32,000 nucleotides of DNA. It comes from an uncultured Pelotomaculum sp. (lineage in GTDB: Bacteria > Bacillota > Desulfotomaculia > Desulfotomaculales > Pelotomaculaceae). The notes under the pieces were generated by a model. The model was given only the letters and a program-made list of their open reading frames with translations. It was not told the origin of the DNA and ran no database searches. Shown here piece by piece: positions 1,804 through 32,000 of this stretch. Position numbers and translations under genes: made by a program. The stretch spans positions 183,765-215,764 of the forward strand of contig CAYPRB010000003.1 in the NCBI GenBank assembly GCA_964413055.1, in the 5' to 3' direction. Numbering within the stretch: position 1 is the first letter of the stretch; every line of letters starts with the position of its first letter.

Positions 1804-1815
1804 GGTTAACCCCTC

Positions 1816-15263: not shown

Positions 15264-16295
15264 AAGAACCCCCTCCCTTTTTTATGCAAGAATCTTTCAC
15301 TAACTGAGCTGCTGAATATCTACCGGGTTAGGTGCCCGGTAATCTGCATTTATCAAAAGACATCATTTAGTTAGTACTATTAAGCACAGCACTATTTATT
15401 AGAACCTTTTATTTTTTATATAGCCTACCACACAGGTAAAACCCTTTCTATATTCAAGCAAGACAGGATATATGACAGGATGCTGTCTAAAACAACAGTT
15501 GTCATACGGGTAGATACAGGACAGTCCAATATAACAGTTTTCAAACCCCTCTAAAATAATTGTGAACAGATCCGGGCTTTGAAAAACTTTTTTATTGCAA
15601 CTTCAATATAAACTGGGACTAGCAAGCTTCAAAAACTGTTGTTTGTGTCGAATATATGCGTTATTTGTTGTAAGTTAAACAAAGAACAATATCTACAATT
15701 CTAACTATGGCATGTAATAGTATCGTTAATATTAATATACAATGTAATTTTATTGCAAACATTGATAGGCAAAAACGTCAAGTAGAGCGATATCAGTACA
15801 AAAGGTAAAAAGTTGGGACCACTGTTCGATGAGATAGTATATCGCAAAATATTCTACCTTGTTTGACTATAGCAAAGGTTATTCTTGCATGTTATATTTT
15901 AAGCAGTTAAAAATTAGGGGGGTTAATGTCTATAAGTATAGTGCCCCATTAGGATATTGACAACGCTTAAGAACATTTAACTGTAATGTAATTTGTATTT
16001 TGACAAAGCACATGCAAAACAAAAGCTCAATTTTGAACTATCCTTGTAGTAGGCAAAAATTTTAGCAAAAGATTTTAGGGTAGGCAAGGCAAAAAATGAG
16101 GTTGTTTAAGAAAAATTAGATGATGAGGTGGTGCTATGACGAATCAAGCTGGGCTAAAGGTTCGAGTCCAGCTAATATAAAAACAAGATACGGGAAAGTG
16201 AAAAGTTAATAATCTCGGGAAAAGCACAGGTGTTAAACCAAATTAACTTATGAAGCTCAGTTAGGGAATTCAGTCAAGAATCTTAAAACTTGTAT

Positions 16296-16460
16296 TTATT
16301 GCGTGAATATGGTCAGGATGAAGGAGCCGTGAAAGCGCCGGACCGGCGGCACCACGGATAAAAGTGTTCCTGGCAAAATTGGGGACGGGGAACTCAAGCC
16401 CGAGCATATTCCTGCGAGCCCTGGGTTGTGCAGCAGTACTTTAGCCACGGAGTAAAACCA
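16296..16460 (+). promoter_or_regulatory. GC-rich, hairpin-rich leader upstream of UbiD paralog 1 (possible cis-regulatory RNA; class unassigned)
   Basis: This is a visibly more GC-rich patch inside a ~1.2-kb AT-rich spacer. It contains the hairpin GCGCCG-GAC-CGGCGGC (16335-16350). CCGTG (16327-16331) can pair with either of two CCACGG copies (16352-16357 or 16445-16450). It ends ~40 nt before the RBS AAGAGGTGG. Confidence 0.3.
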
Positions 16461-16502
16461 TTGAATTTTAAATGAAAAATTTAACAAAGAGGTGGTTGCG
16501 CA

Positions 16503-17930: not shown

Positions 17931-17973
17931 TTACCAGATATAATACCGATTCTACTAAAAGGGGGATATATGC

Positions 17974-18201
17974 ATGAAGTGTGTGCGTTGTTTAAATGAT
18001 ACCGCAGCTAAGTTTGCTGAAGCTCCGGATAAGAGTGGGGCCTGGGAGATGTACATCTGCAGCAAATGCAATTTTTCGTGGCGTAATACTGAAGAGGAAG
18101 ATGTAATTAATCCGGAATTGCGGGATCCGAATTTCCAGCTTTCCAATGAAGCAATAGCAAATCTGCAAATTCTGGTGCCGGTTCCTCCCCTGCGCAAGTA
18201 A
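17974..18201 (+). CDS. Small D subunit of BsdBCD/VdcBCD/EcdBCD-type hydroxyarylic acid decarboxylase, paralog 1
   Basis: 75 aa with CxxC-N21-CxxC (MKCVRCL...YICSKCNFSWR) and a PVPPL tail. It sits directly downstream of the C subunit, which is the canonical position and size. Confidence 0.8.
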   Translation: MKCVRCLNDTAAKFAEAPDKSGAWEMYICSKCNFSWRNTEEEDVINPELRDPNFQLSNEAIANLQILVPVPPLRK

Positions 18202-18648: not shown

Positions 18649-20598
18649 GTGGGGGTGAGTCTAATCGGTATTCAAGAAATGCAGATGGAAACAATGCTTA
18701 GATTGCAGGCCGGATTGGGTAAGAATTACTTAAAAGATAAGCGTGTACTAATTCTTAATGCCAAAGCAACCGGAATTCTGCGCAAAGATCTGATTTATAC
18801 CCTGGGTATAGAAAAAGCTAAGGGATTTTTAATCCGTTTCGGTTTTAACAACGGTTACCAGGATTTTGAAAACTCTGTTAAAAACCTCCCCCAAAACGCA
18901 AAAAATGATAGATATCAAATGGCTATTAATTTCCACAGGTTTATTGGTATGGCCAACGTCACCCCTCATTTGCACCATCGAGATGACGCCAATCATACCT
19001 GGACATGCGAAGGTACCTGGCATGATTCTTACGAAGCAGAGCACCACCTTAGGCATTTTGGTTCTGCAACAGAACCGGTATGCTGGACGCTGGTCGGCTA
19101 CGCCAGTGGGATCATGTCGGCTTTGTTTGGTGAAAGGGTAATAATCAAGGAAGTGTCCTGCGCTGCCATGGGTGACCAGTGCTGCCGTTACGTCGGCAAG
19201 AAGCTGTCTGATTGGGGCGAGGAGATAACTTCCGAGTTGCAGTACTACCATGGAACCAGTTTGGGCCAGGGGGCGGAGTGGCCGAATGCCAGTATTCAGG
19301 AGCAAAATGAGGTAATAAAACAATCACTGGCCATACAGAAGCAGATGACCAGGATGGTGTTAAATGGTGAAGAAATGTCAAAAATTATAAGCATGGTGGG
19401 CAGGATTATGGGCGCCACGGTAGTTGTGGAAGACCGGTCTTTTCAGCCGGTTGCCTATTATTCACCTACTATTTCAACTAAAAAAAATCCGACCACACAG
19501 GCGCCTTTTTCAACTAAAGACATCATCGGCGACTGGCGGTTGCGTCACCTGGCTAACACTTTAATTCAGGAAAAAAAGCCTGTAAGGCTCCCGGCGGAAC
19601 TGACCAGGAAAACTGTTTCCCAATTCATTTACCCAATAGAAATTAAACAGGAAGTCCTGGGTTATGTCAGTATATTTAAGCCCGAATTTAATCTAACAGA
19701 TCATGAAAAGATTATCATGGAGTATATGAATTCTGTCTTTGCCATCAAGATGGTACAGGACCGCACTGTTGCTAAAACTGAAACCCGTTTAATAGGTGAC
19801 TGCGTTTTTGAATTAATCGAGGGCAACTTTAAGTCTGAAGCTTCTATTATTGAAAGAGCGCGCTGTATAGGTTACAATCTTAAACTGCGTCATCAGGTGC
19901 TTGTAGTTGATCTAGATCGCACCGGGGTAAGTCTACCCAGAAGGTCGGGGCGGGGCGAAAGACAGGATCCCGGTTTAAAGGAACAGATGTGTGAAGCAAT
20001 TAACAGAGAGCTTAATATATATAATAAGTCCGGCACTGTGACAACCAATGGTCATTATATTATTGTCCTTGCAGCTCTGGAAAAGAACGCAGCCCCTGAC
20101 GTAACTACCGGGCTGGCACGGAATATTCAAAAGCTGATTGCAAGGAAGTTCCCGGTCACCGTTTCTATTGGTATAGGCCGGGTTTGTTATAAACCCAGGG
20201 ATTTTAGCCAGTCTTACCAGGAAGCCCGGTGGTCACTAAAGGTTATCAGAGGGTTAAACCAGGCTAATATGGTTATTTCCTTTGAAAGTTTGGGTACATT
20301 TGGACTCCTGTTTAACGCTGCCAATCAGGAAGACCTACTGGATTTTATGCAGGGACAACTGGGCAAATTGCTGGAATACGACACTAAGTACAACAGCCAG
20401 CTTGTAGAGTCACTGCATCATTATTTTAGTTGCAACGGCAATATTAAAGAGGCCGCCAAAGCTGCAGCATTGACCATAAGCGGTTTTAAGTATCGCCTCA
20501 AAAGATTATGTGAAGTAGGCAGCTTTAACCTGAAAGATCCGAATAAAAGATTTGATTTACAGTTAGCTTTGAAAATATGGTGTTTAATTAAAGGATGA
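18649..20598 (+). CDS. Hybrid transcriptional regulator: XylR_N + V4R aromatic-sensing module fused to a PucR-type body and C-terminal HTH
   Basis: 649 aa. The N-terminus ([41 protein letters not shown]...[17 protein letters not shown]...[17 protein letters not shown]) looks like the XylR/DmpR A-domain (XylR_N+V4R). The C-terminus ([36 protein letters not shown]) is the PucR HTH_30. There is no AAA+ sigma-54 domain. The start is ambiguous (GTG 18649/18655 or ATG 18679). Confidence 0.8.
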
Positions 20599-20940
20599 AC
20601 GACAGAGGTATATCCACATTTTTCAATAACAGACAACTTATTTTCGATTGTATCTATCTCTGGATAGGCATTAACCCAGTACTGCTGGATTTCCTCTGGT
20701 CTTGTATCGGTTAACCATGAGATTTCAGAAACAGCAATATAACCGTTATCCTTCAAATAATTTCTCCACAGGGACAGTCCCTTTTCAAAACCGATGTTGT
20801 AGATTGCCCCCTCCGACCATAAAATATAAAAACTGCGGTAGCATATCCACCGCTGTTATTTGTGCAGCTGTGTTATTTGCAAGGTTTAATGTTTGACCTC
20901 CAGTCCCACAGCCAATGTCCAATATTTTAGTTTTTTCATT
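20599..20940 (-). pseudogene. Class I SAM-dependent methyltransferase remnant (internal deletion plus frameshift, truncated at both ends)
   Basis: My own translation gives [38 protein letters not shown]. After a frame jump near 20818-20830 it continues [73 protein letters not shown]. Homology stops where the regulator gene ends. Confidence 0.6.
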
Positions 20941-20976
20941 CAATATTTGTCTCGTGTAATTCGATTTTCGACAGGA

Positions 20977-21022
20977 TACTACAATATATATTAGTACTGT
21001 TAGTATTAATATATATTGTAGT
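20977..21022. repeat. Near-perfect 21-bp inverted repeat (hairpin/palindrome)
   Basis: ACTACAATATATATTAGTACT (20977-20997) pairs with TAGTATTAATATATATTGTAGT (21001-21022), with one mismatch. Confidence 0.7.
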
Positions 21023-21246
21023 GATATTTTGCTTTAAACATCTTTATTATTTTAAAAAGTAATTTACTATTAAACTAGTATATAATATAATAAAAGAGTC
21101 AGTAATATAAAATAATACTAGCTTCTCATGCTCTAACAGTTTCCCCTGAAAAAGGGGGATTTAAAAAAACTTTAATCTTCATAATGCAGATAATCTTACC
21201 TGTTAGGTTTTTGGGGTCTAACTCATACTTAACTTGGCTAACTTGG

Positions 21247-21525
21247 TCAGGTTGTATGCAAATATTGAGTTGCCAACCCAGTATTTTGCGCCAGAGTTCC
21301 TCTGAACAGACTTCGTCTTAACCCGTACTTGCGTTTAAGATCTAGCAGCATTTTTTTACCCTTATAAGGTAAGCTAATTCTTTTCACGCCTTTAAGTTTT
21401 TTGACGAGGATGCAGTAAATCTGTTTTTGTTGCTTTTCAAGTTGTCTGTTTTTTTGTTTGATTTCCACTTTAGATATAGTTCCAAGCATCGTCCTACCGA
21501 TACTCCGCCCACAGACATGTTCCAA
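21247..21525 (-). mobile_element. C-terminal remnant of an IS1182/IS5-like DDE transposase
   Basis: EKQQKQIY...LDLKRKYGLRRSLFRGTLAQNTGLATQ resembles the ...EGK.IY...K...G.RR...RGL.KV...L.A C-terminus of IS1182/IS5 transposases. Only ~90 aa are present. Confidence 0.4.
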
Positions 21526-21626
21526 CCGCTGATTTTAACTGAAATTTTTCGGACAACATGAAGCGAACGCGTTATTACTATAAGAAACAGGTGCAGGTTT
21601 ACTAATAGTCAGCAGGGGTGATATTG

Positions 21627-22577
21627 ATGGAAATGCATCAGTTGGAATATGTCCTGGCCGTGGCAAAATATCATAATTTTACACGTGCTTCAGAAGTGTT
21701 GAAGACATCCCAGTCCTCACTTTCCCAGCAAATTATTAAATTGGAAAATGAGCTGGGCATCAGTTTATTCGTGAGAACAACCCGGTCTGTACAGCTTAGC
21801 CCGGCAGGAGAAGAATTTGTCAAGCATGCCAGGCGAATAATGTCAGAAGTAATTGAGGCCCGCCGGTGCATCCACGAGTATACATCCTTCGAAAAAGGCA
21901 ACCTGACGGTAGGAATCATACCTGTAGTGGGGCATTACCGTTTACCTAATCTGCTCTCATCTTATAAAAAAAACTTTCCCAGAGTAATTTTGAACCTCAT
22001 GGAAAGACAGTGCAATGAACTCATCCCCCTGTTGAATTCTCATAAAATTGACGCGGCTTTTGTTCATCAGACCGGTGAAGACCCCAATTTGCAATTTACC
22101 CCGCTGATAACCGATCAGATGGTTATTGTGACCAGTGAACGGCATCCCTTTGCCGCCAGGAAATCAATAAATATCAAAGAATTAGAATATGAAAAATTCA
22201 TTGCTCCACCACCTACTTCAGGCTACAATCAAGATTTTCAGAAAGCATGCCGGTCTGCAGAATTTAAACCCGAGATTATTCTGACTTGCTCTTCGGTTAA
22301 AACAATCCTTGGCTTGGTCCGTGAGGACCTCGGCATTGCAGCGTTGCCAGCCGGTGTAGCTTCAATGGACTGGGGGTTTGGGACAAAGAATTTAAAGCTG
22401 ATACCTACAATAAATTCAACTATTTTTCTGGCAACAAAGAATAAAGATTTATTCCCAACACTTAAAGAGTTTATAAAATTTACCTCAAAGTGGAGTCAAA
22501 AACAGACAAAACCGGACAATTATAAATTCATACCAATTAAATTATCTATCTCCGGACAAAAGTTGAAATTGGGTTAA
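21627..22577 (+). CDS. LysR family transcriptional regulator
   Basis: MEMHQLEYVLAVAKYHNFTRASEVLKTSQSSLSQQIIKLENELGISLFVRTTRSVQLSPAGEEF is the HTH_1 domain, followed by a LysR substrate-binding domain. I prefer the ATG at 21627 (SD AGGGGTG 6 nt upstream) over the GTG at 21618. Confidence 0.9.
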   Translation: MEMHQLEYVLAVAKYHNFTRASEVLKTSQSSLSQQIIKLENELGISLFVRTTRSVQLSPAGEEFVKHARRIMSEVIEARRCIHEYTSFEKGNLTVGIIPVVGHYRLPNLLSSYKKNFPRVILNLMERQCNELIPLLNSHKIDAAFVHQTGEDPNLQFTPLITDQMVIVTSERHPFAARKSINIKELEYEKFIAPPPTSGYNQDFQKACRSAEFKPEIILTCSSVKTILGLVREDLGIAALPAGVASMDWGFGTKNLKLIPTINSTIFLATKNKDLFPTLKEFIKFTSKWSQKQTKPDNYKFIPIKLSISGQKLKLG

Positions 22578-22663: not shown

Positions 22664-23191
22664 CTACAGCCAAACTACCAGCATGTCCCAGGCAATTTTC
22701 AGCCAGGCCGTGTAGGCATCCGGATGTTCTTTCATGTCTTTTTTTAAGTATTCCTTTGAGATCCACTTGTAATTAGCGACTTCTTTCTTATTCCTTTTCG
22801 GTGTACCTTCCCATTTCCCCACGAAGACATGATCATATTCCATTTCTGCCAAGCCATTTTCAAACTCAGCTTTATAAGTAAAGGAGAATATTTCCTCCAG
22901 CTCCGTGTCAAAACCCATTTCTTCCTGCAGCCTTCTGTGTACAGCTACCTTCAGGGATTCGCCCGGCCGTGGGTGGCCGCAGCAGGTATTCGCCCACAAC
23001 CCAGGACAGTGATACTTATATCCGGCACGCTGCTGGATTAACAACTCACCCCTGGAGTTGAAAACAAAAATAGAAAACGCCCGGTGCAGTTTTGGATTTC
23101 TGTGGGCATCGATCTTTTCAGCAGTGCCAATCATGTGATCATTTTCATCCACCAGAATTACATACTCATTATCTTTTCCGGTTTCTTTCAT
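22664..23191 (-). CDS. idi: Isopentenyl-diphosphate delta-isomerase, type 1 (Nudix)
   Basis: 175 aa. LHRAFSIFVFNSRGELLIQQRAGYKYHCPGLWANTCCGHPRPGESLKVAVHRRLQEEMGF...ENGLAEMEYDHVF aligns along its length to E. coli Idi as I recall it, including the catalytic Cys (TCCGHP) and the Glu region. RBS GGAGGTGG. Confidence 0.88.
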   Translation of the reverse strand: MKETGKDNEYVILVDENDHMIGTAEKIDAHRNPKLHRAFSIFVFNSRGELLIQQRAGYKYHCPGLWANTCCGHPRPGESLKVAVHRRLQEEMGFDTELEEIFSFTYKAEFENGLAEMEYDHVFVGKWEGTPKRNKKEVANYKWISKEYLKKDMKEHPDAYTAWLKIAWDMLVVWL

Positions 23192-23281: not shown

Positions 23282-23355
23282 CCAAAGCTATGGCACCCGG
23301 GATGGGGTATTCCCACCCCGGAATAGCAAGGTGCCGGTCCTTGCCATAGCTTTGG
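23282..23355 (-). other. 74-nt three-way-junction-like hairpin element downstream of the D subunit (copy 1)
   Basis: The basal stem is CCAAAGCTATGG(CA)/(TG)CCATAGCTTTGG. It encloses two sub-hairpins: CCGGGA-TGGG-GTATT-CCCA-CCCCGG and CAAGG-TGCCGGT-CCTTG. On the minus strand it is followed by TTTGATTTT, so it may act as a terminator. Confidence 0.45.
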
Positions 23356-23416
23356 CTTTGGCTATAAAGCCGAAAGCACACCACACTAGAGTCTTGTGAC
23401 TTTAAACAATCCCGGT

Positions 23417-23644
23417 TTACTTTTTGAGAGGAGGAACTGGTGAAAAAACCGGGATATTTTCGATTTCCACACCGGCCAGCTGGAACCAGGGATCTCTTTT
23501 TTCAGGGTCGATGACCTCGGGTTCCTCGGTTGAACGCCAGACATAATTGCACCGGTTGCAGATATATACCTCCCAGGCTTTGCTTCCGTCGGGCGCTTCC
23601 GCCACTTTAGCGGCGTTATCTGTTAAACAGCGGACACATTTCAT
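23417..23644 (-). CDS. Small D subunit of hydroxyarylic acid decarboxylase, paralog 2 (repeat copy 1)
   Basis: 75 aa with the four-Cys pattern MKCVRCL...YICNRCNYVWR. SD AAGGAG. It lies 22 nt after the C-subunit stop. Confidence 0.8.
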   Translation of the reverse strand: MKCVRCLTDNAAKVAEAPDGSKAWEVYICNRCNYVWRSTEEPEVIDPEKRDPWFQLAGVEIENIPVFSPVPPLKK

Positions 23645-23666
23645 GGTGAGAATCTCCTTTCGTGCT

Positions 23667-25100
23667 TTATCTGGCAGCAGCCTTTTGCAGGTCTACAAGG
23701 ATCTTTTGATACGGTTCCGCCTCGGGAATGCTGTCCACCATCCGTACCTCCCTGGATATTTCAGGGGCGGCGGGAGTTGTTGCGTCAATGATCAGTTTGC
23801 CGCCGATTCCCGGAGGCTCGGAGCATGGATCCAGAGGCATACCCGGCGTATTGGGGATTACGATTACATCTTTTTGAGGTCGTACCCTTGTAGATAAAGC
23901 CCACATGACCTGGACCAGGTTGAAGGGGTCCACATCCCCGTCTACAAGGATAATATTTTTGGCGTAGCTGGTACCGTGGGGGGTGGAAGCCAGTCTCATG
24001 CCCACCGTCTTGGCATAGGCGCCAAAACGGTTGTCTGTGGCGACGATGATCGTAAGGCCATGTTGATAAATGGCATTGACGGCTTTTACCTCCGGCATGG
24101 TTTCTCTCAACTGGAAATAAAGGGTTGCGCTTGTATTAAGTCCAATCAGGGTATCATGCTCCGTCCAGGGACGGCCCACGTACAGATTTTCAAAAATCGG
24201 GTTTTTGCGGGTGGTAACGGTATTAAGCTTAATCCGGAACTGGCGCCGGGAGCCCGAATAACTTCCCGGAAACTCACCGAAGGGTCCTTCAACGAAACGC
24301 TCTCTTGGTACAAATTCTCCCTCAAGCACAATTTCCGCATAGGCCGGGATGTCCAGATTAGCGGTAAGGGTCTTGGTTAAAATCTGGGGAGCTCCCATAA
24401 AGGCTGCCGCGTATTTGTATTCGGACTGGTCATATTGCAGGGGTGCGCTGGCCATCAGGCTGATCACGGGGTGGACGCCCAGGCATACGGCCACGGGCAG
24501 GGCCTTGCCCATTTCTTCCGCCTTGCGCAGGTGGATTCCGCCGTCATGGAAAGGCAACACCTGGATTCCCAGGGTGTCGGGTCCTTGGACCTGGATCCGG
24601 TACATCCCCACGTTCTGTTTATCCACATTATCAGGATCTTCCGGATCCCTGGTAACAACCGAGGCTTTGGAAAAGTAAAAGCCAGCGTCGTATTTGTTGA
24701 CCCGGAATAAAGGCAGGATTTCATAAAGATTAATATCTTTGGTGATTTTTACTTCCTGGCAGGGCGCGTCCTTAACCCATTTAATTTCGCCGTCACTGCC
24801 GCCGGCCCAGCGTCTGGCAAATTCAAAGAATTGATCTTTGAGCGGGGTGTCCTTGTCCATTCCCAGCATAACGGCATTGTTTGCCCAGGTGCCCAGAACA
24901 TTGATGGCAAGCCGCTTGCCTTTGTAGCCTTTGATGTTTTCGACCAGCACGGCCGGGCCTGTATTTCCCGCCGCTATATCCACGGCCGCCCGCCCGATCC
25001 GCCGGATATCCGGCTCGGGCATAACCTCATCGGTGTAGTGAACCAGCTGTCCCGTCTGCTCCAGCTTCTCTAAAAATCCGCGAAGACTGTTTCCTTCCAT
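23667..25100 (-). CDS. UbiD-family (de)carboxylase C subunit, paralog 2 (repeat copy 1)
   Basis: MEGNSLRGFLEKLEQTGQLVH...QNVGMYRIQV...FHDGGIH...QSEYKYAAA...EGPFGEFPGSYSG. The start is set at ATG 25098-25100, with SD AAGGAG at 25109-25114 and an 8-nt spacer. The GTG at 25109 used by the ORF track overlaps the SD. Confidence 0.92.
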   Translation of the reverse strand: MEGNSLRGFLEKLEQTGQLVHYTDEVMPEPDIRRIGRAAVDIAAGNTGPAVLVENIKGYKGKRLAINVLGTWANNAVMLGMDKDTPLKDQFFEFARRWAGGSDGEIKWVKDAPCQEVKITKDINLYEILPLFRVNKYDAGFYFSKASVVTRDPEDPDNVDKQNVGMYRIQVQGPDTLGIQVLPFHDGGIHLRKAEEMGKALPVAVCLGVHPVISLMASAPLQYDQSEYKYAAAFMGAPQILTKTLTANLDIPAYAEIVLEGEFVPRERFVEGPFGEFPGSYSGSRRQFRIKLNTVTTRKNPIFENLYVGRPWTEHDTLIGLNTSATLYFQLRETMPEVKAVNAIYQHGLTIIVATDNRFGAYAKTVGMRLASTPHGTSYAKNIILVDGDVDPFNLVQVMWALSTRVRPQKDVIVIPNTPGMPLDPCSEPPGIGGKLIIDATTPAAPEISREVRMVDSIPEAEPYQKILVDLQKAAAR

Positions 25101-25155
25101 TGTTGCCACTCCTTTTTGTTAAGTAAAGATAAACCTTTAGAGGCCTTCTTAAGTA

Positions 25156-25710
25156 TTAGCCGTTCCATCTCCTGCCGTTTACCTGCTTGATGCTGAACTG
25201 GTCAAGTAGTTTCATGACATGATGGCTTACTATATCTTCTATGTTCTCCGGGTGATTATAAAATGCAGGCATTGGTGGAACAATTTTTACTCCCATATTG
25301 GCCAGAAGCAGCATATTTCTCAGATGGATGGGGCTTAAGGGTGTTTCCCTCGGGCATACTACCAGTTTTCTTCCTTCTTTGAGCATTACATCGGCTGATC
25401 TTGAAATAAGGTTTTCACAGTAGCCGTTGGCGATAGAACTCAGGGTCTTCATGCTGCAGGGAACAACGATCATGCCGTCAGTGAGGAAGGAACCGCTGGA
25501 AGTTTTAGCACCAAGGTTTTTATTGTCATATACCGCTGCAGCCAGGTTTTCCAGATAATCCACAGAGCAGTTGGCTTCTAATCTCAGGTTTTCCTTGGCC
25601 CAGTGGCTCATGATCAGGTGGATATTTATATTTTTTTCTTTTAAAGCTTCCAACAACCTTACTGCGTAAATCGATCCTGTCGCACCAGTAATTCCCACGA
25701 CAATTTCCAT
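25156..25710 (-). CDS. ubiX: UbiX-family flavin prenyltransferase (B subunit), copy 2
   Basis: 184 aa. IVVGITGATGSIYA...IVVPCSMKTLSSIANGYCENLISRSADVMLKEGRKLVVCPRETPLSPIHLRNM. Confidence 0.92.
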   Translation of the reverse strand: MEIVVGITGATGSIYAVRLLEALKEKNINIHLIMSHWAKENLRLEANCSVDYLENLAAAVYDNKNLGAKTSSGSFLTDGMIVVPCSMKTLSSIANGYCENLISRSADVMLKEGRKLVVCPRETPLSPIHLRNMLLLANMGVKIVPPMPAFYNHPENIEDIVSHHVMKLLDQFSIKQVNGRRWNG

Positions 25711-25848
25711 TTTATTACCCCTTATTTAATAATAAAAAATCCTTTAATGAGCAGCGGTTCCAGGGTATTTAATCAATGCTAGGTCAAGGTTAATACGGAT
25801 ATCGTAGCACTGACGACGCAGGATTCTTAAAAGCCGGACGGGTATACC

Positions 25849-25922
25849 CCAAAGCTATGGCACCCGGGATGGGGTATTCCCACCCCGGAATAGCAAGGTG
25901 CCGGTCCTTGCCATAGCTTTGG
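25849..25922 (-). other. 74-nt three-way-junction-like hairpin element (copy 2)
   Basis: Identical to 23282-23355. It forms the outer edge of the 1838-bp repeat and has no adjacent U-run on the minus strand. Confidence 0.45.
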
Positions 25923-25983
25923 CTTTGGCTATAAAGCCGAAAGCACACCACACTAGAGTCTTGTGACTTTAAACAATCCCGGT

Positions 25984-26211
25984 TTACTTTTTGAGAGGAG
26001 GAACTGGTGAAAAAACCGGGATATTTTCGATTTCCACACCGGCCAGCTGGAACCAGGGATCTCTTTTTTCAGGGTCGATGACCTCGGGTTCCTCGGTTGA
26101 ACGCCAGACATAATTGCACCGGTTGCAGATATATACCTCCCAGGCTTTGCTTCCGTCGGGCGCTTCCGCCACTTTAGCGGCGTTATCTGTTAAACAGCGG
26201 ACACATTTCAT
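25984..26211 (-). CDS. Small D subunit, paralog 2 duplicate (repeat copy 2)
   Basis: The protein string is identical to 23417-23644. Confidence 0.8.
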   Translation of the reverse strand: MKCVRCLTDNAAKVAEAPDGSKAWEVYICNRCNYVWRSTEEPEVIDPEKRDPWFQLAGVEIENIPVFSPVPPLKK

Positions 26212-26233
26212 GGTGAGAATCTCCTTTCGTGCT

Positions 26234-27667
26234 TTATCTGGCAGCAGCCTTTTGCAGGTCTACAAGGATCTTTTGATACGGTTCCGCCTCGGGAATGCTG
26301 TCCACCATCCGTACCTCCCTGGATATTTCAGGGGCGGCGGGAGTTGTTGCGTCAATGATCAGTTTGCCGCCGATTCCCGGAGGCTCGGAGCATGGATCCA
26401 GAGGCATACCCGGCGTATTGGGGATTACGATTACATCTTTTTGAGGTCGTACCCTTGTAGATAAAGCCCACATGACCTGGACCAGGTTGAAGGGGTCCAC
26501 ATCCCCGTCTACAAGGATAATATTTTTGGCGTAGCTGGTACCGTGGGGGGTGGAAGCCAGTCTCATGCCCACCGTCTTGGCATAGGCGCCAAAACGGTTG
26601 TCTGTGGCGACGATGATCGTAAGGCCATGTTGATAAATGGCATTGACGGCTTTTACCTCCGGCATGGTTTCTCTCAACTGGAAATAAAGGGTTGCGCTTG
26701 TATTAAGTCCAATCAGGGTATCATGCTCCGTCCAGGGACGGCCCACGTACAGATTTTCAAAAATCGGGTTTTTGCGGGTGGTAACGGTATTAAGCTTAAT
26801 CCGGAACTGGCGCCGGGAGCCCGAATAACTTCCCGGAAACTCACCGAAGGGTCCTTCAACGAAACGCTCTCTTGGTACAAATTCTCCCTCAAGCACAATT
26901 TCCGCATAGGCCGGGATGTCCAGATTAGCGGTAAGGGTCTTGGTTAAAATCTGGGGAGCTCCCATAAAGGCTGCCGCGTATTTGTATTCGGACTGGTCAT
27001 ATTGCAGGGGTGCGCTGGCCATCAGGCTGATCACGGGGTGGACGCCCAGGCATACGGCCACGGGCAGGGCCTTGCCCATTTCTTCCGCCTTGCGCAGGTG
27101 GATTCCGCCGTCATGGAAAGGCAACACCTGGATTCCCAGGGTGTCGGGTCCTTGGACCTGGATCCGGTACATCCCCACGTTCTGTTTATCCACATTATCA
27201 GGATCTTCCGGATCCCTGGTAACAACCGAGGCTTTGGAAAAGTAAAAGCCAGCGTCGTATTTGTTGACCCGGAATAAAGGCAGGATTTCATAAAGATTAA
27301 TATCTTTGGTGATTTTTACTTCCTGGCAGGGCGCGTCCTTAACCCATTTAATTTCGCCGTCACTGCCGCCGGCCCAGCGTCTGGCAAATTCAAAGAATTG
27401 ATCTTTGAGCGGGGTGTCCTTGTCCATTCCCAGCATAACGGCATTGTTTGCCCAGGTGCCCAGAACATTGATGGCAAGCCGCTTGCCTTTGTAGCCTTTG
27501 ATGTTTTCGACCAGCACGGCCGGGCCTGTATTTCCCGCCGCTATATCCACGGCCGCCCGCCCGATCCGCCGGATATCCGGCTCGGGCATAACCTCATCGG
27601 TGTAGTGAACCAGCTGTCCCGTCTGCTCCAGCTTCTCTAAAAATCCGCGAAGACTGTTTCCTTCCAT
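26234..27667 (-). CDS. UbiD-family (de)carboxylase C subunit, paralog 2 duplicate (repeat copy 2)
   Basis: Identical to 23667-25100. The same SD and ATG are used. The 498-aa extension in the ORF track is rejected. Confidence 0.9.
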   Translation of the reverse strand: MEGNSLRGFLEKLEQTGQLVHYTDEVMPEPDIRRIGRAAVDIAAGNTGPAVLVENIKGYKGKRLAINVLGTWANNAVMLGMDKDTPLKDQFFEFARRWAGGSDGEIKWVKDAPCQEVKITKDINLYEILPLFRVNKYDAGFYFSKASVVTRDPEDPDNVDKQNVGMYRIQVQGPDTLGIQVLPFHDGGIHLRKAEEMGKALPVAVCLGVHPVISLMASAPLQYDQSEYKYAAAFMGAPQILTKTLTANLDIPAYAEIVLEGEFVPRERFVEGPFGEFPGSYSGSRRQFRIKLNTVTTRKNPIFENLYVGRPWTEHDTLIGLNTSATLYFQLRETMPEVKAVNAIYQHGLTIIVATDNRFGAYAKTVGMRLASTPHGTSYAKNIILVDGDVDPFNLVQVMWALSTRVRPQKDVIVIPNTPGMPLDPCSEPPGIGGKLIIDATTPAAPEISREVRMVDSIPEAEPYQKILVDLQKAAAR

Positions 27668-28316
27668 TGTTGCCACTCCTTTTTGTGGTTTTTTATTAAC
27701 TTCACTTTTTTTGAAAACAATCACATTCACTTTCTTTTAGATACATTCACCTGTCTATTCCTTTGTTTTTTGTTCTAATAGGCTTCACCCCTTAGATGCT
27801 GTATTTATGCAAATATTTTTTAAAGTCTTTTTTTGCAAACACGCGTTATCTATAATTCTTCTCATGTCAAAATTTTTACATAATTCATAATAGGTACTGG
27901 GAAGGTTATTAGTTAATTTAAAAAATGAACCGAGATTGATTTAAGTCTCTATTTTTATTATAATTTTAACATCAGTTAATGAAAAAAATGAAATATGTGC
28001 TTGCGATAGCATTATCGTTACTGAATATTAATTAACCGTTTAAAGAGATGGACTAAATTTGGAGTATTGTCCTCATAAGAGTGAAGTTTTACGTTTAGCT
28101 GCTACATCGTATATTACTATCAAGTATATGAATATATGCAATAATACACCCTATTCAATCATTATCTTGAGACTGTAAGAAGATAGTTTCCTGCACCTGG
28201 TTTACCTGGCGCATAAAACTGAAGTAAAATATAACTCAGCAGGTGGGTGACCATGTTAACGGTAAAAGCGGGGAAAACAGCAGGCTTAAAAATTTCTAAC
28301 CTGGAGCTGATAATTA

Positions 28317-28700
28317 ATGGGTATTATTGAAATTAATAAAGAATCCGATGGGTTGCATGTGCTTTTACAAGCAATCAATATGGGTAGGGATTGGAATGTG
28401 GTTATCACAGGCGGGGAAATTCCCCACCTGGGTTCTGTAGCTCTGGGCGTTCCGCGCCCCAGCTTGCAAGACCCTGAACATACCAGTGCTACGGTCTCTG
28501 TATTGACCCTGACCGGACACAAGGAAGATGAGATTGCCCGTCCGGCAGCTCATTTTCTGGCAAGCAGGCTTAATACACATGTCGTTGTTTCCTGCGGAAT
28601 CCACAACGATCAGATTAAACCCGGGGCTATCCGGCAGTTTGGTGAACTGGTGCGGGAAGGGTTAAACGACCTTGTTGCTGCTTGCAGCGAGGGGTCGTAA
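28317..28700 (+). CDS. LpdD-like small protein (putative prenylated-flavin chaperone/accessory subunit)
   Basis: 127 aa. VVITGGEIPHLGSVALG...LTLTGHKEDEIARPAA...VVVSCGIHNDQI resembles my recollection of the GG..PHIGAVA...H.ED...GIH signature of LpdD-type proteins found next to UbiD/UbiX genes. It is transcribed divergently from the C-D-B operon. Confidence 0.5.
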   Translation: MGIIEINKESDGLHVLLQAINMGRDWNVVITGGEIPHLGSVALGVPRPSLQDPEHTSATVSVLTLTGHKEDEIARPAAHFLASRLNTHVVVSCGIHNDQIKPGAIRQFGELVREGLNDLVAACSEGS

Positions 28701-29017
28701 GTAAGCTTTTGGGATTGTTCAAAGATAATGAAAGAAGGGGGGAAACGGCAGGCTCTCCGGGAACGGTGCGGAATTTAAGGAGCCGTTATCTTAAAGTTGT
28801 CCGTTGATTGTTCGGGGAAGCCCGGCAAATTTAAAACGCTGTTTTTTAACAGTCCTTTTACATGCGCTGTTAACTCATTGTATTTATTACTGAATATTAT
28901 TGAATACATTCAAATCATCTGAAAACGGAATATCGCAACGTAAATAAAATTTAAAATTATAACCTGCGGTGGTTGGACGTGCTGCAAAACAAGTACCGGG
29001 CCATAAAATAGTGCTTT

Positions 29018-29067
29018 ATAACTAAACCTGCTTGAACAGCAGGTTTAGTTATAGGTATTATTTTTTT
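29018..29067. terminator. Bidirectional hairpin terminator between the lpdD-like gene and the ligase
   Basis: ATAACTAAACCTGCT-TGAAC-AGCAGGTTTAGTTAT followed by a T-rich run (ATTATTTTTTT). Confidence 0.7.
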
Positions 29068-30700
29068 ATCTCTGTGTTTGAGCTGCCACTAAACTCATGG
29101 CACCGTATTTTTCCCTTAAAAGCGGCTTTTCAATCTTGCCGGTGGGGTTACGCGGAACTTCATCAAAAATAATTTTCCGCGGGCGTTTATAACGCGGCAG
29201 TGGGGTGCAAAACGGCTTTATATCTTCTTCAGTGCATTTGCAGCCCGGTTTTAACTCTATAATGGCAGCCGCTATTTCACCCAGACGCTTATCAGGTAAC
29301 CCAATAACCGCTGCATCCTTAATTGCATTATGTGTACGGAGAAAGTCTTCAATTTGTACCGGATATATATTTTCTCCACCGCTAATAATTACATCTTTTT
29401 TCCGGTCAACCAAATAAATAAAACCGTCTTCATCCATCCGCGCCATATCCCCGGTAAATAACCAGCCATCCTTGATTACCGCCGCAGTCGCTTCCGGATC
29501 GTTATAATAGCATTTCATCACACCAGGTCCCTTGACAACCAATTCTCCAACCTGTCCCTGGGTTACGGGGCTTCCGTTATCGTCGGTAATTTTTACTTCC
29601 CAATTATAACCCGGTATTCCGATAGCGCCGACTTTATGAATATTTTCAGTACCTAAATGGACACACCCGGGGCCGATAGCTTCGCTGAGACCATAGTTCG
29701 TATCATAAAGATGTCCGGGGAAATACTTTTTCCAGCGATGAATCAAGCTGGGAGGAACCGGCTGCGCGCCGATATGCATCAGCCTCCACTGGGATAGTTC
29801 ATAATCTTCCAGATTCACGTCCCCTCTTTCAATGGAATCAAGAATGTCCTGGGCCCAGGGAACTAAAAGCCAGACGATGGTAATTTTCTCCTCGGATACG
29901 GTTCTTAGGATCCATTCGGGCTTAACTCCGCGAAGCAATACAGCCTTGCTTCCCGACAGCAAACTGCCGAACCAGTGCATCTTGGCACCGGTATGATAAA
30001 GCGGCGGAATGCATAAAAAGTTATCTTCACGCTTTTGACCGTGGTGATTAATTTCCGTATAACATGCCGACATCAAACTCTGGTGCGTATGCAATATAGC
30101 TTTTGGAAATCCCGTAGTCCCCGAGGAAAAGTATATAACCGCATCATCTTCATCCATAAGTTTAACCTGCGGGTCTTCGGAGGAACAATTGGCCGTAAGA
30201 CGGTCATAATTTTCGGCAAATGAGGGACGGTTTTCTCCCGCAAAAAAGAGTGTCTTTACTTTAGGTATATGATCATAAATCGTTTCCACCCGGCCGATAA
30301 ATTCAGGCCCAAAAATCAGGGCACTGGTTTCAGATAAATCCAAACAATGTTTTATTTCCTCGGCCGTGTAGCGAAAGTTTAACGGCACTGCAATAGCGCC
30401 GGTTTTTAATATACCAAAATAAATCGGCAGCCACTCCAGGCAATTCATTAAAAGAATAGCTACCTTATCCCCTTTTTTTATCCCCCTTTTCAGCAGTAAA
30501 TTGGCCAGTCTATTTGCCTTCTCGTCAAAAACCCGCCAGGTCATCTCCCGCCGGTATTCACCTGCCGGGTTGTTTTCAATTAGTTCATACTCACGCCAGG
30601 TAACATTGTGCCTTTCCTGAAGATCCAAATTGATCTCAGTAAGGCATTTTTCCTGTCCATATAACCGGGCATTTCGCGTTAATATTTCTGTGATGGGCAT
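29066..30700 (-). CDS. Class I adenylate-forming enzyme / acyl- or aryl-CoA ligase
   Basis: 544 aa. AMP-binding motifs YFSSGTTGFPKA, YGLSE, FTGDMA, ISGGENIYP and PRNPTGKIEK. RBS GGGAGGAAAAGG. Confidence 0.9.
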   Translation of the reverse strand: MPITEILTRNARLYGQEKCLTEINLDLQERHNVTWREYELIENNPAGEYRREMTWRVFDEKANRLANLLLKRGIKKGDKVAILLMNCLEWLPIYFGILKTGAIAVPLNFRYTAEEIKHCLDLSETSALIFGPEFIGRVETIYDHIPKVKTLFFAGENRPSFAENYDRLTANCSSEDPQVKLMDEDDAVIYFSSGTTGFPKAILHTHQSLMSACYTEINHHGQKREDNFLCIPPLYHTGAKMHWFGSLLSGSKAVLLRGVKPEWILRTVSEEKITIVWLLVPWAQDILDSIERGDVNLEDYELSQWRLMHIGAQPVPPSLIHRWKKYFPGHLYDTNYGLSEAIGPGCVHLGTENIHKVGAIGIPGYNWEVKITDDNGSPVTQGQVGELVVKGPGVMKCYYNDPEATAAVIKDGWLFTGDMARMDEDGFIYLVDRKKDVIISGGENIYPVQIEDFLRTHNAIKDAAVIGLPDKRLGEIAAAIIELKPGCKCTEEDIKPFCTPLPRYKRPRKIIFDEVPRNPTGKIEKPLLREKYGAMSLVAAQTQR

Positions 30701-30860
30701 TTTCCTTTTCCTCCCGTTCTACCAACATACAAAGATATGATGTAAGGGTATTATGTATTTTAATAATAAAAAGCCGTACTGCATAATAACAGCTATACAC
30801 AATAAATTATAATTCGATACAAGCTGTTAATCAATAACTTCTTGCATCACACCACTATTT

Positions 30861-32000
30861 TCAGAATTCAGAAGCAGACACTGCAAAACTGCGTGAACTT
30901 AACCAGTAATCGCCTCTGGGGGTATTAGCAAACAACCAATTTTTGCGACCGATAACAAAAGGCTTAATGGAACGCTCACTGCGGTTATTATCCAGTTCCA
31001 AACGCCCGTCTTGCAGAAAAGCCGTCAACTTATTCCATTGTTTACGGCAATAACTAATCGCCTGGCCGAAAGCACTTTTGGGCAGTACTCTTGGACTCTG
31101 GTAGTTTAACCAGGTCCAAAAAGCATCCAGTACCGGTCGGCTATGCGTGAGCCGGGCTTTATAACGCTCATCCGGAGCAGCATCACGTAACTTACGTTCT
31201 ACGGCAAAAAGTTGATTGCAAAAATTCAATCCCTCTTGGGCAGCGACATCTTTAGCGCGTTTTTCCGCCGGTAATGCTTTGAGCGCTTCATCAAATTTAC
31301 GCCGGGCATGGGACCAACACCCGACCAGGGTGATGTCCGGGAGTCCGTTGTAACCAGCATAACCATCAACATGCAGATAACCTTTAAAACCGGTTAAAAA
31401 CCGCCGGGGATGCTTGCTTGCCCGGGTGGTTTGGTAGTCATAAAGCACTATTGGCGGGCCTGCGCCGGTGCGGTATAGCCACAGGTAAGATGTGCTTGCT
31501 GCCGGCCGGCCCGGTTCGCGCAGTACCTGCAGGGTTGTCTCATCGGCATGCAGGATGTCTTGTTTTAACAGTTGTTCGTGCATTCTTTCGTAGAGGGAAC
31601 CCAGCCATCGGTCGGCACCTTGGATGATCCAATTGGCCAGGGTTTGACGGGATAGTTCTACTCCCAGACGGGACCAGGTTTGCTCCTGACGATACAGCGG
31701 CATTCCCTCCACATATTTTTGGGTCATGATATAAGCCAGCGCGGAGGGGGAAGCCAAGCTTCCCGGTAGTACCGGGGCAGGCATGGGAGCGGTTACAATG
31801 GGGGTTTGGATATCATTTCGTTCGCAGCGGCGGCAAGCGTAGTTGTAACGCACATGTTTGACCACTTTTACCTGGGCGGGTATAATTTTAAGCTCCTGCC
31901 TTACCTGGGTGCTCATTTCATGTAAAGCACCACCACAACAGGAACAGACCTGTTTTTCGGGAGGCAGGCGGTATTCGACGGTCTCCACCGGCAGGTCTTT
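30861..32000 (-). mobile_element. IS66-family transposase (TnpC), open at the window end and degenerate at its 3' end
   Basis: Zinc-finger CSCCGG...[48 protein letters not shown] and GRKNWLF. After ANTPRG the frame decays where A..SA..YSLIETAK is expected. The reading frame continues upstream of the internal GTG at 31988. Confidence 0.85.

What the first reader, a model, noticed from the sequence alone, without database searches (positions are those of the whole stretch)
23282..27686. Apparently 100% identical 1838-bp direct repeat duplicating the C+D decarboxylase pair on both sides of ubiX
Regions 23282-25119 and 25849-27686 are offset by exactly 2567 bp. Every ORF on both strands translates identically in the two copies. 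The repeat covers the RBS, the C gene, the D gene and the 3' hairpin element. It is not a simple tandem duplication: the layout is R-U-R with unique outer junctions, not RU-RU. That points to a recent dispersed duplication, gene conversion between older paralogs, or an assembly artefact. Functionally it doubles C+D dosage relative to UbiX. It also creates a RecA substrate that can delete ubiX plus one copy, or amplify the 2567-bp unit, so the locus may vary in copy number.
Basis: seen in the sequence. Interest (0 to 1): 0.7.

Follow-up and report, generated by a model that had tools for sequence, protein, structure and literature searches.

The report
Duplicated decarboxylase genes kept identical
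A Pelotomaculum operon carries two copies of its aromatic-acid decarboxylase genes, one on each side of the cofactor gene ubiX; the duplication is old, and recombination between the copies has kept them letter-for-letter identical, which is a clean but not unprecedented case of concerted evolution.

Summary
Window 23282-25119 and 25849-27686 are a perfect 1838-bp direct repeat, offset 2567 bp.

Each copy carries a ribosome-binding site, vdcC (a UbiD-type subunit, 477 aa), vdcD (a zinc-ribbon subunit, 75 aa) and a 135-nt tail. ubiX lies between the copies and idi follows the second.

It is not an assembly artefact. Independent metagenome contigs cover all four junctions. A sister species shows the same layout in several assemblies, including a 3.14-Mb contig.

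It is not a recent duplication. The sister species has the same junctions and its own perfect 1827-bp repeat. Yet the repeat differs between the two species by 117 substitutions, about as much as the flanking single-copy genes. A third lineage carries a decayed second copy at the same junction. A lineage with about 16% DNA divergence shares the ubiX-to-second-copy junction.

So the duplication is old and the copies are homogenised by gene conversion or unequal crossing-over.

The "3' hairpin" is the relic of an lpdD chaperone gene.

Doubled VdcCD dosage relative to UbiX is plausible but not shown. Copy-number variation is unresolved, because the one-copy contigs look like short-read collapse.

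This is a new example of a known phenomenon, of moderate interest.

The parts
25849..27686 (-). Repeat copy R1 (upstream copy in the operon): RBS + vdcC1 + vdcD1 + 135-nt tail
   Evidence: Exact identity to 23282-25119. The promoter-to-R1 junction is seen in L006 and the R1-to-ubiX junction in L001 and L002.
26234..27667 (-). vdcC1, UbiD-family decarboxylase subunit C (477 aa, ATG at 27667)
   Evidence: Pfam UbiD_N/UbiD/UbiD_C. NCBIfam VdcC 690 bits against a cut-off of 650. Best PDB match is 7ae4 chain A, the C subunit of the S. hydroxybenzoicus VdcCD structure, E 3e-161.
25984..26211 (-). vdcD1, 75-aa zinc-ribbon subunit D (CxxC...CxxC)
   Evidence: NCBIfam VdcD 81.7 bits against a cut-off of 30. 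Matches ShdD of PDB 7ae4, E 1.6e-16.
25776..25983 (-). Pseudogene relic of an lpdD-like chaperone gene between vdcD1 and ubiX. Its first 135 nt belong to the repeat; the rest is unique.
   Evidence: tblastn with the window's intact LpdD finds two frames (E 3.7e-7 and 1.4e-5). DNA local alignment z = 13.6. The relic is fuller in L087 (37% over 118 aa, with stops, E 5e-18). The gene is intact at this position in L185, and its first 45 codons are intact up to the end of the contig in L183.
25849..25922 (-). 74-nt two-tier hairpin at the 3' end of R1 (lpdD codons ~20-44)
   Evidence: Exact pattern located. Fold of the copy-2 tail: -64.6 kcal/mol, z -4.7. Inner stem 88.8% paired across 8 relatives, with 5 of 10 pairs changed on both sides.
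25156..25710 (-). ubiX (flavin prenyltransferase, 184 aa), single copy, inside the unique segment U (25120-25848)
   Evidence: Pfam Flavoprotein. NCBIfam UbiX family 243 bits against 108.9; VdcB-specific model 272.5 bits, below its 290 cut-off.
25120..25155 (-). 36-nt spacer between the ubiX stop codon and R2. This junction is shared with L087, L008 and L185.
   Evidence: Alignments of the junction.
23282..25119 (-). Repeat copy R2 (downstream copy): RBS + vdcC2 + vdcD2 + 135-nt lpdD relic
   Evidence: Exact identity to R1. The ubiX-to-R2 junction is seen in L001, L002 and L005, and the R2-to-idi junction in L003, L004 and L005.
23667..25100 (-). vdcC2, identical to vdcC1
23417..23644 (-). vdcD2, identical to vdcD1
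23282..23355 (-). Hairpin at the 3' end of R2
22664..23191 (-). idi, type-1 isopentenyl-diphosphate isomerase (175 aa), last gene of the operon. It would supply the dimethylallyl donor for UbiX (inferred).
   Evidence: Pfam NUDIX. NCBIfam IPP isomerase equivalogs 181.9 against 127 and 140.7 against 105.8. idi recurs next to vdc clusters in other genomes.
27957..27985 (-). Best sigma-70-like promoter match upstream of vdcC1, in the AT-rich region 27687-28316. No promoter-like site lies upstream of vdcC2 on this strand.
   Evidence: Consensus scan only, 10 of 12 matches. Weak evidence.
28317..28700 (+). Intact lpdD-like gene (127 aa), transcribed divergently from the operon
   Evidence: Pfam PF21758, 120.6 bits against a cut-off of 27. 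PF21758 is labelled LpdD_chaperone. The family's function is described in PMC10865409.
21618..22577 (+). LysR-type regulator, convergent with the operon. This neighbour is conserved in all close relatives.
   Evidence: Pfam HTH_1 + LysR_substrate; synteny.

Best explanation
The locus is one operon of a prenylated-FMN-dependent hydroxyarylic-acid (de)carboxylase of the VdcBCD/ShdBCD type, in a Pelotomaculum species. The gene order is vdcC-vdcD-(dead lpdD)-ubiX-vdcC-vdcD-idi.

The second vdcCD copy arose by an old duplication. That event copied the RBS, vdcC, vdcD and the first ~135 nt of the then-following lpdD gene to a site 36 nt downstream of ubiX. The two copies did not diverge afterwards. 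Homologous recombination between them has repeatedly overwritten one with the other. The recombination could be non-reciprocal gene conversion, unequal crossing-over with re-contraction, or both. As a result the copies are identical within each genome while the pair as a whole drifts between species. This is concerted evolution.

Shown:
- the repeat is real and exact;
- the junctions are shared across lineages;
- there are 0 differences within a genome against 117 substitutions between species.

Inferred:
- the recombination is RecA-dependent;
- all six genes are transcribed from one upstream promoter;
- the arrangement persists because two doses of the stoichiometric VdcC-VdcD complex per dose of the catalytic cofactor-maker UbiX are advantageous;
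- loss of ubiX plus one copy by repeat-repeat recombination is counter-selected.
For: (1) The repeat is exact over 1838 bp.

(2) Contigs from five other samples, which share no assembly with the window's source contig, reproduce all four junctions. They break at, or within 6 nt of, a repeat edge, or at a variant near one, as expected for an exact repeat in short-read graphs.

(3) The sister species has C-D-ubiX-C-D-idi with a perfect 1827-bp repeat (offset 2702) in at least 5 assemblies. One of them is GCA_040769005.1, a 3.14-Mb contig with proteins MGI5942241-246 in that order.

(4) The window repeat differs from the sister repeat by 117 substitutions and 15 indel positions (93.6% identity). 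The substitutions are spread evenly, and vdcC has 81 synonymous against 6 non-synonymous codon changes. This is the same level as single-copy ubiX (94.6%), idi (91.1%) and lysR (91.9%). Both repeat edges are homologous to within 3 nt.

(5) L008 and L189 keep a decayed second copy at the same ubiX/R2 junction. It consists of 58 codons of vdcC fused by a microhomology deletion to idi codon ~103.

(6) L185, whose C subunit is 89.9% identical in protein and whose DNA is about 84% identical, has the end of vdcD, then lpdD, ubiX, the same 36-nt spacer, then vdcC-vdcD. In Pelotomaculum sp. FP the unit is a stand-alone 1840-nt contig whose ends match the window's repeat edges to within 5 nt.

(7) In two metagenomes the R1 tail carries a 2-nt deletion and a T>C change that are absent from R2. 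This shows that the copies can differ transiently near the edge.

(8) VdcD is needed stoichiometrically by VdcC in a hexameric complex (PMC8379154). Co-duplication of C and D therefore preserves their ratio.

(9) The same logic (conserved synteny plus near-identical paralogues) is used for amoCAB and other cases in PMC6053082.
Against: - No reads were available. The copy number in the window's own genome (2 rather than 3 or more) and the identity of its copies therefore rest on the assembly plus short independent contigs.
- Close relatives L009, L010, L011, L014 and L015 are truly single-copy (C-D-ubiX-lysR). If the duplication is as old as L185 and FP imply, several independent losses, or a lateral transfer of the operon, must be assumed.
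- For FP the second copy is inferred only from the contig boundaries.
- Nothing here measures expression, so the dosage benefit is conjecture. The genome also holds a paralogous vdcC'D' and ubiX' set.
- Gene conversion cannot be told apart from amplification-contraction using these data.
Confidence: 0.8

Rival explanations
1. Recent duplication in this strain: the copies are identical simply because they are young.
For: Zero differences in 1838 bp. The closest outgroup, L009, has a single copy.
Against: The same junctions, the same 36-nt spacer and the same repeat edges occur in the sister species, in L008/L189 and in L185, whose DNA is 6-16% diverged. The repeat has accumulated 117 substitutions between species, yet none within either genome.
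Confidence: 0.03
2. Assembly artefact: a single vdcCD was written twice, or two slightly different copies were polished to identity.
For: MAG assemblies can mis-resolve repeats. Five sister-species contigs show a one-copy form. L001 and L002 show 3 nt of difference in the R1 tail that the window lacks.
Against: All four junctions are found in contigs from other samples. ubiX is flanked on both sides by repeat sequence (L001, L002). The two-copy form is found in at least 5 assemblies of the sister species, including a 3.14-Mb contig. Short-read contigs break at the repeat edges, which requires near-perfect identity.
Confidence: 0.04
3. Homogenisation by copy-number cycling rather than gene conversion: unequal crossing-over makes R-U-R-U-R and single R, and contraction back to R-U-R resets the copies to identity. 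The locus would then be truly copy-number polymorphic in populations.
For: A 1.8-kb perfect direct repeat is a good substrate for this (general knowledge). One-copy contigs L086, L088, L091, L092 and L093 lack exactly R+U and are otherwise 99.7-100% identical to the two-copy genome.
Against: A single-R product has lost ubiX and cannot regenerate R-U-R. No contig with three copies was seen. The one-copy contigs appear, from their naming and assembler type, to come from short-read assemblies, where skipping the R-U loop is a known failure. A strain with the same lysR frameshift as the one-copy contigs L088 and L093 does carry ubiX-R2 (L100).
Confidence: 0.15
4. The two-copy operon spread laterally among Pelotomaculum lineages, so the shared junctions reflect transfer rather than age.
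For: The two-copy state is patchy on the vdcC tree. The window clade, L185 and FP have it, while L009, L010, L011, L014 and L015 do not. L185 has a different downstream neighbour.
Against: Within the window, sister and L008 clade the flanks (lpdD, lysR, xylR-type regulator, vdcC'D') are syntenic and equally diverged. That is vertical descent, and it is enough on its own to require homogenisation.
Confidence: 0.1

Closest known systems
VdcBCD / ShdBCD / BsdBCD non-oxidative hydroxyarylic acid decarboxylases (Sedimentibacter hydroxybenzoicus VdcCD, PDB 7ae4; Bacillus subtilis BsdBCD)
   Same: UbiD-fold C subunit (E 3e-161 to 7ae4 chain A), zinc-ribbon D subunit (E 1.6e-16 to ShdD), and a UbiX-type B gene in the same operon.
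   Different: The known operons, and the related loci surveyed here, carry one C and one D. Here C+D occur twice, on either side of ubiX. The operon also ends in idi, has a dead internal lpdD, and has a live lpdD transcribed divergently. The substrate is unknown. Relatives such as Cryptanaerobacter are proposed to use this enzyme type to carboxylate phenol (PMC5946492).
Concerted evolution of duplicated bacterial genes by gene conversion (tufA/tufB in Salmonella; amoCAB, haoAB and cycAB copies in Nitrosomonadales; rRNA operons)
   Same: The paralogues are identical within a genome and diverged between species, with conserved synteny and junctions showing that the duplication predates speciation. 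The genes encode subunits of one complex of a key catabolic step (PMC6053082, PMC5485169).
   Different: The copies here are only 729 bp apart, in direct orientation, inside one operon, and they bracket an apparently needed single-copy gene. Neither UbiD nor any decarboxylase is mentioned in the main text of that survey of 26 genes.
LpdD prFMNH2-binding chaperone of gallate decarboxylase LpdBCD (Lactobacillus plantarum)
   Same: The gene at 28317-28700 belongs to PF21758. C-D-lpdD-ubiX is a common gene order in Clostridia (PMC10865409).
   Different: In the window the operon-internal lpdD is a pseudogene. Its 5' end has become the hairpin at the end of each repeat copy.

Membership tests
VdcBCD-type prFMN-dependent hydroxyarylic acid decarboxylase | UbiD-family C subunit that reaches the curated VdcC model cut-off | tested here: met
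   NF041204 VdcC 690.1 bits against a cut-off of 650. All three Pfam UbiD domains are present.
VdcBCD-type prFMN-dependent hydroxyarylic acid decarboxylase | Small zinc-ribbon D subunit with four cysteines, encoded directly after C | tested here: met
   NF041205 VdcD 81.7 bits against a cut-off of 30. Cysteines at positions 3, 6, 29 and 32. Aligns end to end with ShdD of 7ae4.
VdcBCD-type prFMN-dependent hydroxyarylic acid decarboxylase | UbiX-type flavin prenyltransferase (B) in the operon | tested here: met
   UbiX family models passed (243 bits against 108.9). The narrower VdcB model scores 272.5, just under its 290 cut-off.
VdcBCD-type prFMN-dependent hydroxyarylic acid decarboxylase | Reversible decarboxylation of 4-hydroxybenzoate or vanillate | not testable with these tools
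   No biochemical data. The substrate is inferred from homology only.
Concerted evolution by gene conversion | Paralogues within a genome are more alike than orthologues between species | tested here: met
   0 of 1838 (window) and 0 of 1827 (sister) differences within genomes, against 117 substitutions between them.
Concerted evolution by gene conversion | The duplication predates the species split (shared junctions and synteny) | tested here: met
   Homologous P/R1, R1/U, U/R2 and R2/idi junctions in the window and L087. The U/R2 junction is also present in L008 and L185.
Concerted evolution by gene conversion | Conversion tracts visible as patchy differences between the copies | tested here: inconclusive
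   There is only one hint. The R1 tail differs from R2 by a 2-nt deletion and a T>C change in L001 and L002, but not in the window.
Concerted evolution by gene conversion | Dependence on homologous recombination (RecA) | not testable with these tools
   Needs genetics.
Simple tandem duplication or amplification (RU-RU) | Head-to-tail units with a single novel junction, and U present after every R | tested here: not met
   The layout is R-U-R. There is no second U, and there is no homology beyond the repeat edges.
Mobile element or composite transposon | A transposase or terminal inverted repeats bounding the duplicated unit | tested here: not met
   There are no inverted-repeat pairs of 30 nt or more in 20-32 kb. 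The only transposase (IS66, 30861-31988) lies 3 kb outside the unit, and the sister species has other genes in that upstream position.

The most novel reading that the evidence does not exclude
The R-U-R architecture works as a recombinational dosage switch. RecA-mediated exchange between the perfect repeats continually produces cells with one vdcCD and no operon ubiX (relying on ubiX'), or with three or more units. On this reading the five one-copy contigs of the sister species, which are 99.7-100% identical in both flanks, are real alleles and not assembly collapse. The population would hold heritable, reversible-by-selection variation in decarboxylase dose. In addition, the hairpin salvaged from the dead lpdD gene would be retained as an RNA element that sets the vdcCD : ubiX/idi expression ratio.
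Probability: 0.12. Interest if true: 0.55.

Novelty: new member of a known kind. Interest (0 to 1): 0.4.

Why it matters
- For UbiD/prFMN enzymology, this is a natural operon design that doubles the stoichiometric enzyme subunits (C and D together) while keeping single genes for the cofactor synthase and the prenyl-donor isomerase. It has been maintained across lineages with up to about 16% DNA divergence. That suggests VdcCD amount, not cofactor supply, is limiting in these syntrophic anaerobes.
- For genome evolution, it is a compact and well-dated case of concerted evolution inside an operon, with a needed gene trapped between the repeats. It also documents alternative fates: homogenised, decayed by microhomology deletion, or absent.
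- For metagenomics, it is a worked example of how a 1.8-kb exact repeat makes short-read MAGs silently drop ubiX and one gene pair. That would distort pathway and copy-number calls for these organisms.

Tried and rejected
- Homology beyond the repeat edges, which would indicate an originally larger duplication. Local alignments of the 5' and 3' flanks in the window and in L087 score no better than shuffles.
- Higher G+C of the repeat (about 52% against about 44%) as a sign of foreign origin or biased conversion. vdcC is equally G+C-rich in single-copy relatives.
- A known RNA family for the hairpin. Rfam gave only two sub-threshold, unrelated hits in 20-29.5 kb.
- The hairpin as an intrinsic terminator. 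There is no T-run, and it is not picked up by the terminator scan.
- A promoter inside U for the second copy. None was found on the - strand.
- A scan of metagenome contigs for the window's R1/U junction gave 0 hits. A scan with UbiX protein gave only relatives of about 55% identity or less.
- The P0010 lineage as another two-copy case. It has a stand-alone vdcCD followed by a terminator-like hairpin, in another genomic context.
- An exact look-up of the FP vdcC protein found nothing on record.
- A literature search for the sample and assembly accessions gave no hits.
- An integron or transposon origin. There are no inverted repeats and no recombinase at the unit.

Full report
**The observation**

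Comparing the window with itself at an offset of 2567 bp gives a single uninterrupted run of identity. Positions 23282-25119 equal 25849-27686, which is 1838 bp with no mismatch and no N. The sequences outside all four edges are unrelated. Shuffle tests find no residual homology beyond the edges, either in the window or in the sister species.

**What the genes are**

Everything is on the - strand. In the direction of transcription the order is as follows:

- an AT-rich upstream region, with the best promoter-like match at 27985-27957;
- vdcC1 (27667-26234);
- vdcD1 (26211-25984);
- a 273-nt spacer;
- ubiX (25710-25156);
- a 36-nt spacer;
- vdcC2 (25100-23667);
- vdcD2 (23644-23417);
- a 225-nt spacer;
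- idi (23191-22664).

A LysR-type regulator gene (21618-22577, +) converges on the operon. An lpdD-like gene (28317-28700, +) diverges from it.

The gene assignments rest on these results:

- C has the three UbiD domains and passes the curated VdcC model, 690 bits against a cut-off of 650.
- D passes the VdcD model and has the four cysteines of the zinc ribbon.
- The best solved relatives of C and D are the two chains of Sedimentibacter hydroxybenzoicus VdcCD, PDB 7ae4.
- ubiX passes the UbiX family models, and idi passes the type-1 IPP isomerase equivalogs.

In VdcCD the D subunit is an integral, stoichiometric partner of a hexameric C (PMC8379154). LpdD is a prFMNH2-binding chaperone (PMC10865409).

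The locus is thus a self-contained prFMN decarboxylase module: enzyme, cofactor synthase, prenyl-donor isomerase and chaperone. The same window also holds a paralogous vdcC'D' pair (16503-18201, about 63% protein identity) and a ubiX' (14691-15263).

**Is the repeat an artefact?**

No. Exact-protein look-ups returned contigs from five other samples (JGI 3300033167, 3300037528 and 3300033428; ENA ERZ27252280 and ERZ27252287; Logan SRR12613930). Together they cover all four junctions:

| Contig(s) | What it covers |
|---|---|
| L006 | promoter into R1, ending exactly at the repeat's last base |
| L001, L002 | R1 tail, ubiX and the head of R2 |
| L005 | ubiX, all of R2 and 6 nt of the idi flank |
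| L003, L004 | start exactly at the repeat's first base and run through R2 into idi and lysR |

This is shown. Breaking at or next to the repeat edges is what short-read graphs do with an exact repeat.

The same protein look-ups show that the window comes from a 215,766-nt contig deposited at NCBI.

**The sister species**

The organism is a Pelotomaculum. The closest genome in the species-representative set is Pelotomaculum sp. UBA1371, with 99% protein identity for vdcC.

The vdcC protein of that species carries two accessions three apart in one genome, GCA_040769005.1, on a 3.14-Mb contig. The proteins run MGI5942241 to MGI5942246 in the order C, D, UbiX, C, D, IDI.

Fetching this locus and others shows C-D-ubiX-C-D-idi in at least five assemblies from different samples (L085, L087, L089, L090, L094 and more). 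In every one there is a perfect 1827-bp repeat at offset 2702.

**Age of the duplication**

The repeat edges of the sister species are homologous to the window's to within 3 nt. So is the 36-nt spacer between ubiX and the second copy.

Yet the window's repeat and the sister's differ by 117 substitutions and 15 indel positions (93.6% identity). These differences are spread evenly along the unit. In vdcC there are 81 synonymous and 6 non-synonymous codon differences. This is the same level of divergence as single-copy ubiX (94.6%), idi (91.1%) and lysR (91.9%).

Each of those 117 changes is present in both copies of one genome or the other. Independent parallel mutation cannot do that.

With zero differences in 1838 sites, the last homogenisation lies within roughly the most recent 2.5% of the time since the two species split. 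This is my own Poisson bound, calculated from the numbers.

Three further lineages point the same way:

- **L008 and L189.** L008 (vdcC 97.5% identical) and the independent assembly L189 have C-D-ubiX followed, at the same junction, by the first 58 codons of a second vdcC. That fragment carries a stop and an 11-nt insertion in the RBS region. It is fused to idi codon ~103 across the microhomology CTA-AAAG. This is a second copy that escaped homogenisation and decayed. The remnant is closer to the window, sister and L008 vdcC genes (13-19 differences in 182 nt) than to outgroups (23-35 differences).
- **L185.** This contig (vdcC 89.9% identical in protein, about 84% in DNA) reads: last codons of vdcD, intact lpdD, ubiX, the same 36-nt spacer, then vdcC and vdcD.
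- **Pelotomaculum sp. FP.** Here the unit is a stand-alone 1840-nt contig whose two ends coincide with the window's repeat edges to within 5 nt. That is the classic signature of a collapsed repeat.

Against a very old origin, L009, L010, L011, L014 and L015 are truly single-copy (C-D-ubiX-lysR). A collapse cannot create a ubiX-lysR junction. Either the second copy was lost several times, or the two-copy operon moved laterally. Neither alternative affects the conclusion for the window, sister and L008 clade, whose flanks are syntenic and equally diverged.

**Mechanism**

The best-supported reading is concerted evolution. An old dispersed duplication of [RBS-vdcC-vdcD-5' lpdD] has been kept identical by recurrent homologous recombination between the copies.

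Gene conversion is the simplest route. Unequal crossing-over followed by contraction would give the same pattern and cannot be excluded.

There is a hint that the copies do differ transiently. In L001 and L002 the R1 tail has a 2-nt deletion and a T>C change that R2 lacks in the same sample series and that the window lacks in both copies.

The nearest described parallels are tufA/tufB and the multi-copy amoCAB, haoAB and cycAB operons. For those the same argument is used: near-identical paralogues plus conserved synteny (PMC5485169, PMC6053082). Neither UbiD nor any decarboxylase is mentioned in the main text of that survey of 26 genes.

**The '3' hairpin element'**

The 135-nt tail of each copy folds into a strong two-tier hairpin (74 nt, -64.6 kcal/mol for the 159-nt region, z -4.7). 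It is not a free-standing element.

The spacer between vdcD and ubiX gives translated matches to the window's intact LpdD in the window, L087, L008 and L009. These matches are interrupted by stops and frameshifts (37% over 118 aa, E 5e-18 in L087). L185 carries an intact lpdD at that position, and in FP its first 45 codons are intact up to the end of the contig. C-D-lpdD-ubiX is also the usual order in Clostridia.

The repeat's 3' edge therefore lies at about codon 44 of a now-dead lpdD. The inner stem of the hairpin is the coding sequence for GGEIPH (GGTGGGGAAATTCCCCACC).

After the gene died, the inner stem was kept with compensatory changes. Across eight relatives 88.8% of cells are paired, and 5 of 10 pairs changed on both sides. 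The structure beats all slid controls. Lineages that deleted the rest of lpdD (L010, L011, L014, L015) still retain the hairpin.

I infer, with moderate confidence, that it has been co-opted as an RNA structure at the end of the vdcCD segment. Possible roles are a 3' stabiliser or a processing site. It has no T-run, so it is not a canonical terminator.

**Function of the doubling**

C and D act as a 1:1 complex, while UbiX makes a cofactor catalytically. Duplicating C and D together doubles the enzyme-subunit genes per ubiX and idi gene. No promoter-like site precedes the second copy, so a single transcript is likely.

This part is inference. No expression data were available.

The arrangement persists through at least 6% DNA divergence, and probably about 16%. 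It persists despite a perfect 1.8-kb direct repeat that should readily delete ubiX plus one copy. That argues for selection to keep it.

**Copy-number variation**

Five sister-species contigs (L086, L088 = UBA1371, L091, L092, L093) show promoter-R-idi without ubiX. They lack exactly one R+U unit. They are otherwise 99.7-100% identical to the two-copy genome on both sides, and L092 has 0 differences in 17 kb.

Judging by their names and assemblers (SPAdes NODE, MEGAHIT k141, Logan, an early UBA bin), they are short-read assemblies. The two-copy contigs include the 3.14-Mb and 639-kb contigs. A strain with the same lysR frameshift as L088 and L093 does carry ubiX-R2 (L100).

Collapse is the more likely explanation. 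Real deletion alleles are not excluded, and this can be settled only with reads.

**Verdict**

The artefact and 'recent duplication' readings are rejected. The 'gene conversion between older paralogues' reading is supported. The dosage and copy-number ideas are plausible but untested.

This is a new, well-documented example of a known evolutionary process in a known enzyme family, with one small twist (a pseudogene-derived hairpin at the repeat edge). It also carries a practical warning for short-read MAGs.

Noticed in passing
window 14691-18201 and 18649-20598: There is a second, divergent decarboxylase set: ubiX' (14691-15263, -), vdcC' (16503-17930, +; 63% identical to vdcC and passes the VdcC model at 713 bits) and vdcD' (17974-18201, +). 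It is followed by a XylR_N/V4R/PucR-type regulator. The set is syntenic in L007 and L009.
   Followed up: partly
window 20600-21600; L087 14053-14574; L008 12859-13005 and 14709-15200: The two idi paralogues have been lost reciprocally. The sister species has idi (after vdcD2) and idi2 (between lysR and the xylR-type gene; about 80% DNA identity). The window has only idi, with an AT-rich stretch where idi2 would be. L008 and L189 have only idi2, with idi truncated.
   Followed up: partly
window 28317-28700 (+) and the coding sequence of lpdD in L185 16-401: The intact lpdD gene itself contains the near-perfect palindrome GGTGGGGAAATTCCCCACC (codons GGEIPH). A hairpin therefore pre-exists inside the live gene. 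It is unknown whether it has a role there.
   Followed up: no
window 29066-31988; L087, L089 and L090 upstream regions: The region upstream of the operon and lpdD is rearranged between strains and species. The window has an acyl-CoA ligase (29066-30700) and an IS66 transposase (30861-31988). L087 has a radical-SAM gene and L31. L089 and L090 have CoA-transferase and heterodisulfide-reductase-like genes and no lpdD directly upstream.
   Followed up: no
L085 19537-19856: A 161-bp exact tandem duplication is present in one sister-species assembly and absent from L087.
   Followed up: no
L024 8241-11690; L046 8194-11650; L050: Other taxa show other duplication states of vdcCD. There is a diverged tandem C-D-C-D in a Korobacteraceae MAG (the copies are 64% and 62% identical to the query). 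There are C and D fragments next to an intact C-D in Pectinatus haikarae. There are two adjacent C genes in a Coriobacteriia MAG.
   Followed up: no
L088 12526-13475; L093; L100 3516-4465: The lysR regulator is split by a frameshift in some sister-species strains but intact in others (L087, L085).
   Followed up: no
window 27730 vs 27667 and 25109 vs 25100: Gene callers give the two identical vdcC copies different lengths. The upstream copy is called at 498 aa from an upstream GTG outside the repeat, and the downstream copy at 477 aa. This hides their identity in protein-level comparisons.
   Followed up: yes
window 313-3393 and 28975-29050: Type I restriction-modification methylase and specificity genes lie at the left end of the window. 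There is a weak, sub-threshold Rfam hit (OrzO-P, 33 bits against 60) between lpdD and the ligase gene, most likely chance.
   Followed up: no
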